A stretch of 64,000 bases of DNA. Source: Strigamia acuminata (Eukaryota). The position numbers were made by a program, and so were the translations under genes. This document shows positions 1,711-4,700 of the stretch, piece by piece (position 1 is the stretch's first letter; every line of letters begins with the position of its first letter). The DNA lies in contig OX442314.1 in the NCBI GenBank assembly GCA_949358305.1, forward strand, positions 20,832,001 to 20,896,000, written 5' to 3'. The notes below the pieces were generated by a model, which ran no database searches, was not told the DNA's origin, and saw nothing but the letters and a program-made list of their open reading frames with translations.

Positions 1711-4700
1711 TTATACTTCATCTTCAATTGATGGTATAGGAATACTATGTTTTTGAGCTAATGCAGTCAGTATATAAATAATCTGGTCTGTTTTCTTATC
1801 AATAGTGGACATCTGGAAGGTAGAACAAGATTAAATATTTTTTCGCTTAAATAAAACTGTAGAAATAAACAAAATCTGTCAAAATGCAAATTGATTTCAC
1901 CAACTTGAAAGCTAAATTAAATTTTAAGATTTAGTCTTAACCTGCTGCTCCACTCTGAACAATCGTGCACCAACTGTTAACGGCTTTCGTTCTCCAGCGA
2001 CCAAGTAAGAACCAGGTTTTCCCAAGGTTTGATCTAGCCTGAAAAAAAAGAGATTACCATTTTATTTCAAAAAAAAAAAAAAAAAACTTTATTCTAACCT
2101 TCTCTGCAACTCCTTTATCCGAACCATCATATTCAAATGCCCTTGGGAGTATTGTTCAATTACATCTCGAACATCGTATGGTTTCCGTGCTTGTTGAAAC
2201 TTTCGTCGAGAAACAAAATATTTGATCTTCCTAATCGCTCGAATTGCATTTTTATGAGCATCTGTCAAACTAGAAAAAAAATAATTCCCTCAAAACTTTC
2301 AATTGTACTTTAATTTTCTTTTTATTTCGTGTACTTTGTTATTCTCGGTGGATCGTCAATGTCAATTTCAATTTCATCGGATATAACGTCAACTCCCGAG
2401 TTACTACCAGGAGTGCAGCTTAAATATTGTCCACGGTTTTCTTTCCGTTGTCTATTAGGAGTACCTTAATTTTGTTTTTTTTTTAAATTAAAAAAATCAA
2501 TTTAATTTATTGCTTTAGATCTACTGCATTAATAAATTATGGTTAAATCCAAAACTATACTTTTCAATGAGGCAGTGCAGTGAATTTTTTTAGTAGAAAT
2601 AGAAAATTAATAAATAGACGAAGTTTGTAAAGATATAGATTGTCATGCTTGTTTTTTGGTGATAAACAGTGGCAGAAACTGTTTGAAATAGAGGTAACAC
2701 AGCAATACTTTTTTTATGTGATGCCTTGAATGCTGTAAGATTGAAAATGGGACAACAGCGAGCCAGACCTGAGCAAAGGAATTAATTTTAAATAGGAGTT
2801 TTCAAAATTCATTTTCCATAAAGTTAGTTATAGTTTTATTAGTACAGCTAAATATGAACGAAGCGGATTTTACTAAGCTAGATTATGTTAATAAGGCCGT
2901 CTATACATTGCTTTCATTCCATGTATTAACCTACCATTTTCATCTTTAATTACTATTTCTGGATTATCATATGCAAACTGTTGAATGATGGCATGTCTAG
3001 TTGCACTTGACGTTGCGTAAAGTCCAAAAAATCTTTTTAGGAAACCAATTTGTTCTTTTGAATCTTGTTAACAACCCAAAACAAACAAAAAATTAAAAAC
3101 TAAACAAAAATAAGAATAAAAATATAAAAAAGAAATCATAAAATAAAAACAATATCCAGAGGTTTAATCGAATAATTAGAAGAATCTGCCCCTTAATACT
3201 AGAGAGGAAATTGTAATAAATTTATATTGTAACCTGCTTTTGGTTCTTCTGCGTAAAACACTACATCCCCTTCACTATCCCTTCGACAAGAGCTCGAGTT
3301 ATTTTCCATTACATTGTTTCCAACTTCCAACTTCGTCTTCGATTTCCTCCTCCTTAATACGCTTGCTCTTTTGGCCACCTGTGCGCAAAGTAGAAAAAGC
3401 TTGAGCATATTATTTTTCTTCAAATATTAAATTGAAATGTTATTTTGTACAAAAAAAATTCAATCAATAATTAGAACACGTCAATAGAATCCTGCATAAA
3501 ACTCATTAATATCCTTCAAATCGTATGGTTTCGGGGCTGACGAGTTGTGATTCTCAACATCAAAGGCTACGCGATCAGGCAAACAAAGCAAACACAAACT
3601 GCTTTTAAAAGGATAAATATGTACCCTGGCAAAAGATGAGGTGTTGTTGTTAGACGAGTCGTGTTTCAAATGAATTTTCCAAGTAGCAACTGATTTAAAA
3701 TTTCGATCAGCAGCGTGACATCTCCATAAACACTAACAGGAAGTTTTAAATAATTAACTTATTCTTTTTAATACTCTTAGCTGAATCTAAATTAATAAGT
3801 ACCTGGATTAGCAACGCAGCTGCAGGTATCTGTCGATTAAAATGTTTTTGTCTTTGTTTTTGCTGCACTTTTAGAGCAAATCCTGAACCTAAAATCCCCT
3901 AAGACCAATACGTAATTATTTAATTTTATGTCAAAAAAATTAAATTAAAAACAACAAAGTTAATATGATTACAGTATTAAGAGCAGCAAAGATCACGTCC
4001 TAAGTTAAAAGGAATTAAAAAGCAAATACTTACTGCTGGTAATGCAAAGAAAGAAATAGCGAAGACAGAGAAGCATGAAGCAACTATTTTTCCCATCCAA
4101 GTTTTAGGAACAGTATCTCCATAACCAATAGTTGTAACAGTTATCTAATTAGAAAAAGGGTTAGTGTGTTAACAGGTAATAAATAATTAGTCATCTCAAT
4201 ATTTGTGCAAATGAAAAGAAGCGATGAAACATGAGCGAAGAAAGTATAATAACAATAAACGAAAATATAATTTACTCACAGAAGGTAATGCAAAAAATGA
4301 TATAGTAAACAAAGATCCTATCATTGCAAACACTTTGCCTAACATTGTGCGTGGTACTTTATCACCATAACCTACTGTTGTAAAAGTTATCTAAAGCAAA
4401 ATAATTAAAAACAGTAAAATAAAATAAAGTAAAAATGTGTTCGTGCAAAGCGTAGAATAAATAAAATAAATAAAATTAAAGAAGAAATCAAACAAAATAA
4501 AGAATTGCGAAAACAAAATTCATGCATTTCTTACCACTCCCCACCATAATGCATCAGCATAACTGGCAAAATCAGCTTTTCCGTCAGGCCCAACCGCATC
4601 TTTCTCAGCCAAATATACAAAATAGGAAGAAAAAATGAGTCCTAAAAAACCTATGTACAGTGTTGTAATCAATTCCTAAAAAAAAATAAAACGGTGCAGA

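What the first reader, a model, noticed from the sequence alone, without database searches (positions are those of the whole stretch)
4034..4390. KCNQ1-type channel with two interchangeable selectivity-filter/S6 exons
Seen: two tandem 111-nt exons 135 nt apart, both with AG/GT sites, the same phase, no stops and no indels. Exon 6b ([37 protein letters not shown]) is close to vertebrate KCNQ1. Exon 6a ([37 protein letters not shown]) is strongly diverged but keeps T-x-TT-x-GYGD, VP-x-T, GK and ISFFALP. Established: KCNQ filters are TIGYG, TVGYG is the Shaker/KcsA type, and PAG is the KCNQ S6 hinge. In human KCNQ1 numbering 6a gives V310F, I313V, W323M, F332G, A336T and A344S (PAG to PSG). Inference: heavy nucleotide divergence with exact conservation of filter residues and length implies purifying selection on both exons. 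One gene could therefore swap its pore by mutually exclusive splicing and change conductance, inactivation, blocker or toxin sensitivity. Including both exons would stay in frame, so exclusion would need an active mechanism.
Basis: partly seen in the sequence, partly recalled or inferred. Interest (0 to 1): 0.9.

Follow-up and report, generated by a model that had tools for sequence, protein, structure and literature searches.

The report
Centipede KCNQ1 with swappable pore exons
A soil-centipede potassium channel gene carries two conserved versions of its pore exon, and two of a voltage-sensor exon, and likely splices in one of each; the pore swap is probably the venom-gland self-resistance switch already reported in giant centipedes, while the sensor swap looks new.

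Summary
Observation confirmed. Exons 6a (4390-4280) and 6b (4144-4034) are intact 111-nt phase-0 copies of the KCNQ1 filter/S6 exon, 23/37 residues identical. The nearest protein is Strigamia maritima KCNQ1, whose gene model strings both exons together, each one residue from the window's, so the window is a geophilomorph centipede and 6a is conserved. The pore switch is probably not new: Wang et al. 2022 (Curr Biol, PMID 35863353; citation seen, content recalled) reported a Scolopendra venom-gland KCNQ1 using exon 6 instead of 7 to resist its own toxin SsTx. 3a is intact in two related species (one scored fully: 5/127 changes against 29/237 in the intron, p=0.008), and co-inclusion stops the frame. 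3a replaces F167, R181 and K196 (charge-transfer centre, PIP2 site). No RNA run was available, so splicing, tissue and function are inferred; no exclusion mechanism was shown for 6a/6b. Verdict: real, pore part likely known, sensor part likely new.

The parts
4280..4390 (-). Exon 6a, divergent copy of the filter/S6 exon (human 308-344)
   Evidence: 36/37 residues identical in S. maritima
4034..4144 (-). Exon 6b, canonical filter/S6 exon
4145..4279 (-). 135-nt intron between 6a and 6b; consensus branch site CTAAC about 17 nt before the 6b acceptor, so no steric block
4354..4432 (-). Predicted hairpin pairing the 6a polypyrimidine tract with the start of 6a; would hide the 6a acceptor (tentative, window chosen after seeing the fold)
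   Evidence: z -2.75, 2 of 200 shuffles; z -2.15 for a 134-nt window, six other acceptors z -1.35 to +1.52
7696..7822 (-).
   Evidence: (E 1e-12)
7332..7458 (-). Exon 3b, canonical 127-nt S2 / S2-S3 loop exon
7882..9033 (.). 26-nt inverted pair (arms 9033-9008 and 7907-7882, 96% complementary) near the two ends of intron 2: an RNA bridge from exon 2 to 3a, or the ends of an inserted element
13109..13446 (-). Coding exon 1 from the first ATG (an upstream extension is not excluded)
9079..9169 (-). Exon 2 (S1)
4933..5108 (-). Exon 4 (S3, S4, S4-S5 linker)
4535..4675 (-). Exon 5 (S5, turret, pore helix)
1711..3898 (-). Exons 7-13 (3898-3803, 3732-3625, 3378-3234, 2464-2335, 2269-2099, 2038-1942, 1812-1711): end of S6 and cytoplasmic tail; 610 aa with one exon of each pair

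Best explanation
This centipede KCNQ1 gene holds two conserved pairs of duplicated exons, 3a/3b (S2 and S2-S3 loop) and 6a/6b (filter and S6), and likely splices one of each: the canonical b exons in most tissues and the divergent 6a likely in the venom gland, where it would reshape the outer pore so that the animal's own pore-blocking toxins bind poorly. Shown: anatomy, splice sites, frames, conservation. Inferred: one-or-the-other splicing, enforced for 3a/3b by a frameshift and premature stop, and for 6a/6b by regulated acceptor choice with 6a skipped by default (a hairpin over its acceptor is a weak candidate). Carried over from a recalled Scolopendra study: venom-gland use and toxin resistance. 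3a is predicted to change voltage sensing and PIP2 coupling.
For: 6a and 6b each differ by 1 of 37 residues from S. maritima KCNQ1, whose model joins both. A neutral 6a would do so with probability 0.0002 at 12.2% divergence, 0.008 at 8%. At 8 of the 14 differing sites the 6a residue occurs in 0 of 39 distinct KCNQ1-type exon-6 sequences: radical change, then stasis. Counting exons 1, 2, 3b, 4, 5 makes 6a the sixth and 6b the seventh, matching the recalled 'exon 6 rather than 7' of PMID 35863353. SsTx blocks KCNQ1 (IC50 2.8 uM) through outer-pore residues (PMC5816164, passages); centipede Shaker resists it through one residue, and KCNQ was expected to be resistant (PMC7413724, passages). Exon 3a: no indel in organisms B and C; in B 5/127 changes against 29/237 plus 5 insertions in the intron, Fisher p=0.008; 3a+3b stops at residue 206. 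21 of 80 metagenome loci span exons 5-7 and each has one exon 6.
Against: No transcript was seen with 6a or 3a. The Scolopendra paper was not held and no Scolopendra exon turned up, so orthology is untested; 14 residues differ here against 11 recalled. Neutral divergence to S. maritima was not measured; at 5% the probability is 0.076. 3a changes are 3 nonsynonymous to 2 synonymous (pN/pS about 0.5, small numbers), looser than 3b (1 to 3). No docking/selector pairing was found around 6a/6b beyond shuffles. The filter aspartate that SsTx contacts (mapping to D317 recalled) is kept in both exons, and the lysine 6a adds beside it is also in SsTx-sensitive vertebrate KCNQ1, so charge alone does not explain resistance. 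Whether geophilomorph venom has a KCNQ blocker is not known to me.
Confidence: 0.68

Rival explanations
1. The a exons are spliced mutually exclusively but serve gating, not venom resistance: they make a KCNQ1 with shifted voltage dependence or PIP2 need for a secretory or other tissue, doing by splicing what KCNE subunits do in vertebrates.
For: 6a changes W323, S330 (KCNE1 contacts) and F332 (gating); 3a changes F167 (charge-transfer centre) and R181, K196 (PIP2 site), roles from PMC12589563 (passages; mapping). 3a lies mostly in the membrane and cytoplasm, away from a pore blocker's site.
Against: A toxin-resistance role is on record for the same exon position in Scolopendra (recalled). The two roles are compatible.
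Confidence: 0.2
2. 6a (or 3a) is a regulatory off-switch: its inclusion, alone or with 6b, gives a non-conducting or dominant-negative subunit.
For: 6a+6b is in frame and the S. maritima model joins both; 8 substitutions are at residues not seen in 39 other sequences.
Against: The T-T-x-GYGD filter, length and FFALP are kept, and 36/37 residues are held between species, more than an off-switch needs. The joined model is an automated gene prediction as far as I can tell, not a transcript.
Confidence: 0.08
3. 6a and 3a are unused, decaying duplicates.
For: No RNA evidence in hand; 3a is absent from the protein collection (weak search).
Against: Conservation of 6a and 3a; intact splice sites; 63% and 56% nucleotide identity to the b copies without a stop or indel.
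Confidence: 0.04

Closest known systems
Scolopendra venom-gland KCNQ1 splice variant (Wang et al. 2022, Curr Biol 32:3556, PMID 35863353; citation seen, content recalled)
   Same: Centipede KCNQ1; alternative sixth and seventh exons coding the pore and S6; upstream exon is the divergent one.
   Different: Another order (Geophilomorpha against Scolopendromorpha); 14 differences against 11 recalled; a second pair 3a/3b that I do not recall from that abstract; expression and resistance untested here.
Strigamia maritima KCNQ1, UniRef100_T1IGW3 (P0003)
   Same: Same gene; both pore exons present, each 36/37 identical.
   Different: The database model joins 6a and 6b in one protein and carries only 3b.
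Mutually exclusive duplicated exons in other ion channels (CACNA1C 8/8A, SCN5A 6A/6B, AMPA receptor flip/flop, Drosophila para; recalled)
   Same: Tandem exon duplication, equal length and phase, one copy used per transcript.
   Different: Here the whole potassium selectivity filter and most of S6 are swapped, and a second pair swaps S2 of the sensor in the same gene.
Vertebrate KCNQ1 with KCNE subunits (PMC12589563)
   Same: The residues changed in 6a and 3a include KCNE contacts, the charge-transfer centre and the PIP2 site.
   Different: Change would come from splicing within one gene, not from a partner subunit.

Membership tests
KCNQ1 / Kv7.1 | Six-helix Kv subunit with TIGYG filter, PAG hinge and KCNQ cytoplasmic tail | tested here: met
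   Exons 1-13 give an open 610-aa frame; P0003 carries PF00520 and PF03520; 6b has TIGYG and joins exon 7 as PAG. 6a gives TVGYG and PSG.
KCNQ1 / Kv7.1 | Closer to KCNQ1 than to KCNQ2-5 | tested here: met
   KCNQ1 chains rank first for 6a, 6b and 3a.
Mutually exclusive exon cluster | Tandem homologous exons of equal length and phase with their own splice sites | tested here: met
   111/111 nt and 127/127 nt, AG..GT.
Mutually exclusive exon cluster | Both copies under purifying selection | tested here: met
   6a 36/37 residues against S. maritima (neutral distance borrowed); 3a against intron p=0.008 in organism B.
Mutually exclusive exon cluster | Transcripts contain exactly one copy | not testable with these tools
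   No RNA holder listed.
Mutually exclusive exon cluster | A mechanism that prevents co-inclusion | tested here: inconclusive
   3a+3b frameshifts to a stop at residue 206. For 6a/6b no frameshift, no steric block and no docking/selector pair above shuffles; only a modest hairpin on the 6a acceptor.
Scolopendra-type venom-gland KCNQ1 variant (definition recalled) | Divergent pore/S6 exon is the sixth, canonical the seventh | tested here: met
   Exon order, leaving 3a uncounted; the paper's numbering is recalled.
Scolopendra-type venom-gland KCNQ1 variant (definition recalled) | Sequence orthology with the Scolopendra exon | tested here: inconclusive
   No Scolopendra sequence returned; paper not held.
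Scolopendra-type venom-gland KCNQ1 variant (definition recalled) | Venom-gland expression and resistance to own toxin | not testable with these tools
   Needs tissue RNA and electrophysiology.

The most novel reading that the evidence does not exclude
Centipede KCNQ1 is a two-switch gene: exons 3a and 6a are spliced together into a gland-specific channel with both a rebuilt pore and a rebuilt voltage sensor (charge-transfer phenylalanine and two PIP2 contacts replaced), a toxin-proof, weakly voltage-dependent potassium conductance made without a KCNE subunit; the pore duplication would predate the split of soil centipedes and giant centipedes.
Probability: 0.3. Interest if true: 0.72.

Novelty: new variant of a known kind. 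Interest (0 to 1): 0.5.

Why it matters
If 6a is orthologous to the Scolopendra exon, the pore switch is shared by two centipede orders and old, which dates venom self-resistance or shows that it reused an older gating variant. The 3a/3b pair adds a natural experiment on KCNQ1 gating: a conserved S2 that lacks F167, R181 and K196, positions central to voltage sensing and PIP2 coupling in the human cardiac channel. Four isoforms from one gene can be compared directly. It also shows that the S. maritima database model with two filters is probably a mis-join.

Tried and rejected
No whole genome held. No RNA holder listed. Run X6 laid nothing on the exon-3 stretch (no proof of absence). 6a in 1.84 billion representatives: no 6a-type exon among the best 150 of 567 hits. 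3a in the protein collection: 0 of 7 candidates (weak). Scorpion P0004 has two filters, but the second is an identical copy of exons 6 and 7 together, taken as an assembly or model duplicate; it and P0003 were the only 2 of 120 listed proteins with two filters. Steric exclusion and docking/selector pairing for 6a/6b not supported. No strong selector before 3b (best -14.8 kcal/mol, shuffle median -13.2). Other exons: no further full duplicate among 13 exon profiles. Single-sequence fold of P0003 was useless (mean pLDDT 39.8). Earlier findings: three look-ups, nothing. Literature: ten searches gave no text describing KCNQ1 exon duplication in Strigamia or a duplicated S2 exon; the library lacks most subscription papers, including the key one and its supplements, which may already show 3a.

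Full report
Observation. They share 70/111 nt and 23/37 residues. An exon-6 profile scores 6b 100.7 bits, 6a 57.6 bits and nothing else in the window above 7.2.

Gene and organism. A search with 6a returned 1 protein of 12 candidates: Strigamia maritima KCNQ1, UniRef100_T1IGW3. Its model contains both exons in a row. Mapping it on the window gives 13 coding exon positions from 13446 to 1711 and an open frame of 610 residues with one exon of each pair. Exon-by-exon identity to S. maritima runs from 88% to 100%, so the window comes from a close geophilomorph centipede (taxonomy). Six runs were listed for the stretch, none on record as RNA.

Is 6a alive? It differs from S. maritima at 1 of 37 residues, as does 6b. 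Simulated neutral change leaves at most one residue changed and no stop with probability 0.0002 at 12.2% divergence, 0.008 at 8% and 0.076 at 5%. The 12.2% is borrowed from the exon-3 intron against organism B; the true distance to S. maritima was not measured. Among 39 distinct KCNQ1-type exon-6 sequences (kept if at least 27/37 identical to 6b, which favours uniformity), the 6a residue never occurs at 8 of the 14 differing sites: 310, 313, 323, 328, 330, 331, 332, 334. So 6a changed radically at fixed positions and is now held. Outside centipedes I found no such pair: 21 of 80 unnamed, partly redundant metagenome loci span exons 5 to 7 and each has one exon 6; of 120 listed proteins only S. 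maritima and a scorpion model have two filters, the scorpion's being an identical copy of exons 6 and 7. Millipedes and other centipede orders were not tested.

A second pair. Exon 3 is duplicated too: 3a 7822-7696 and 3b 7458-7332, both 127 nt with AG and GT ends, 71/127 nt and 19/42 residues identical; 3a scores E 1e-12 on an exon-3 profile and maps to human 160-201. Contigs of two related organisms cover both exons without a gap. In organism B, 3a has 5 changes in 127 nt (3 nonsynonymous, 2 synonymous), 3b 4 (1 and 3), and the intron between them 29 in 237 plus 5 insertions; Fisher p=0.008 for 3a against intron. In organism C 121 nt of the intron do not align while both exons do; some of its differences were not listed, so it was not scored. 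3a keeps E160, E170, R174 and K183 but replaces F167, R181, Y184, R195 and K196. F167 belongs to the charge-transfer centre and R181, K183, K196 to the PIP2 site; W323, S330 and F332, changed in 6a, are KCNE1 contacts or gating residues (PMC12589563, passages). 7 of the 80 loci hold exon 3, one copy each in the sequence held.

How exclusion could work. Both exon-3 copies together stop the frame at residue 206 and neither stops it at 144, so decay of such messages would enforce one-of-two (decay inferred). For exon 6 all paths stay in frame. The branch site lies about 17 nt before the 6b acceptor, so there is no steric block, and intron-intron pairings are no better than shuffles (whole region z +0.74). 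A hairpin pairs the 6a polypyrimidine tract with the start of 6a (z -2.75 and -2.15; six other acceptors -1.35 to +1.52); the window was picked after seeing the fold, so it is only a lead for default skipping of 6a. In intron 2 a 26-nt inverted pair sits 46 nt after the exon-2 donor and 60 nt before the 3a acceptor (-30.7 kcal/mol; its 20-mer occurs twice in the window). It could bridge exon 2 to 3a, but the interior is richer in G+C than the flanks, the arms begin and end in TA, and the window has other exact inverted pairs, so transposon ends are about as likely.

Function. SsTx from Scolopendra blocks KCNQ1 at 2.8 uM through the outer pore (PMC5816164, passages), and centipede channels carry resistance changes (PMC7413724, passages). 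Wang et al. [quoted passage not shown] From memory of its abstract, venom-gland KCNQ1 uses exon 6 instead of 7, differs at eleven pore and S6 residues and resists SsTx. Here 6a is the sixth and 6b the seventh exon when 3a is left uncounted. I therefore take 6a as the likely counterpart, at 0.68 for the whole explanation. Against: no Scolopendra sequence was available to align, 14 residues differ here, no transcript was seen, and the simple charge argument fails because vertebrate KCNQ1 has the same lysine after the filter. The main rival is a gating variant unrelated to venom, which fits 3a better than toxin resistance does.

Novelty. The pore swap is probably in print for Scolopendra; its presence in a second order and the 3a/3b pair were not found in ten searches of the held library (listings, plus passages of nine papers), but the key paper and its supplements were not seen. 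No earlier finding of the scan matched. Interest 0.5: real and directly testable, with the headline part likely known and the sensor exon the new element.

Noticed in passing
window 3624-3481, minus strand: Reading through the weak exon-8 donor (GTACAT) gives 47 more residues ending in a stretch like the start of helix C in exon 11 (26/36 nt identical, in frame; 1 of 2000 shuffles scores as well), then a stop. A short alternative tail or the remnant of a partial exon duplication.
   Followed up: partly
window 14256-14185, minus strand: Matches residues 16-39 of the S. maritima model at 62% (E 0.11); possibly an upstream exon or conserved non-coding sequence.
   Followed up: no
P0003 (UniRef100_T1IGW3): The S. 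maritima protein joins both pore exons, probably a gene-model error.
   Followed up: partly
P0004 (Centruroides sculpturatus KCNQ1-like): Carries exons 6 and 7 twice, identically; likely an assembly or model duplicate.
   Followed up: partly
window 37300-38200 and 42800-43700, minus strand: Two tandem, closely similar GMC oxidoreductase genes.
   Followed up: no
window 16200-61000: Ordinary neighbours by Pfam: ribosomal protein L11, a BTB-domain gene, a cyclin, an amiloride-sensitive sodium channel (29237-31806), a diacylglycerol kinase.
   Followed up: no
window 11983-12166: Four AT-rich tandem copies of about 42 nt in intron 1.
   Followed up: no
window 49490-49770 and 59648-61125: Exact 20-nt inverted pairs 261 and 1458 nt apart, like the ends of small transposons.
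   Followed up: no
L068:4243-4650 and L071:869-1240: Several partial tandem copies of the end of KCNQ1 exon 5 just after the exon, in an unnamed animal.
   Followed up: no
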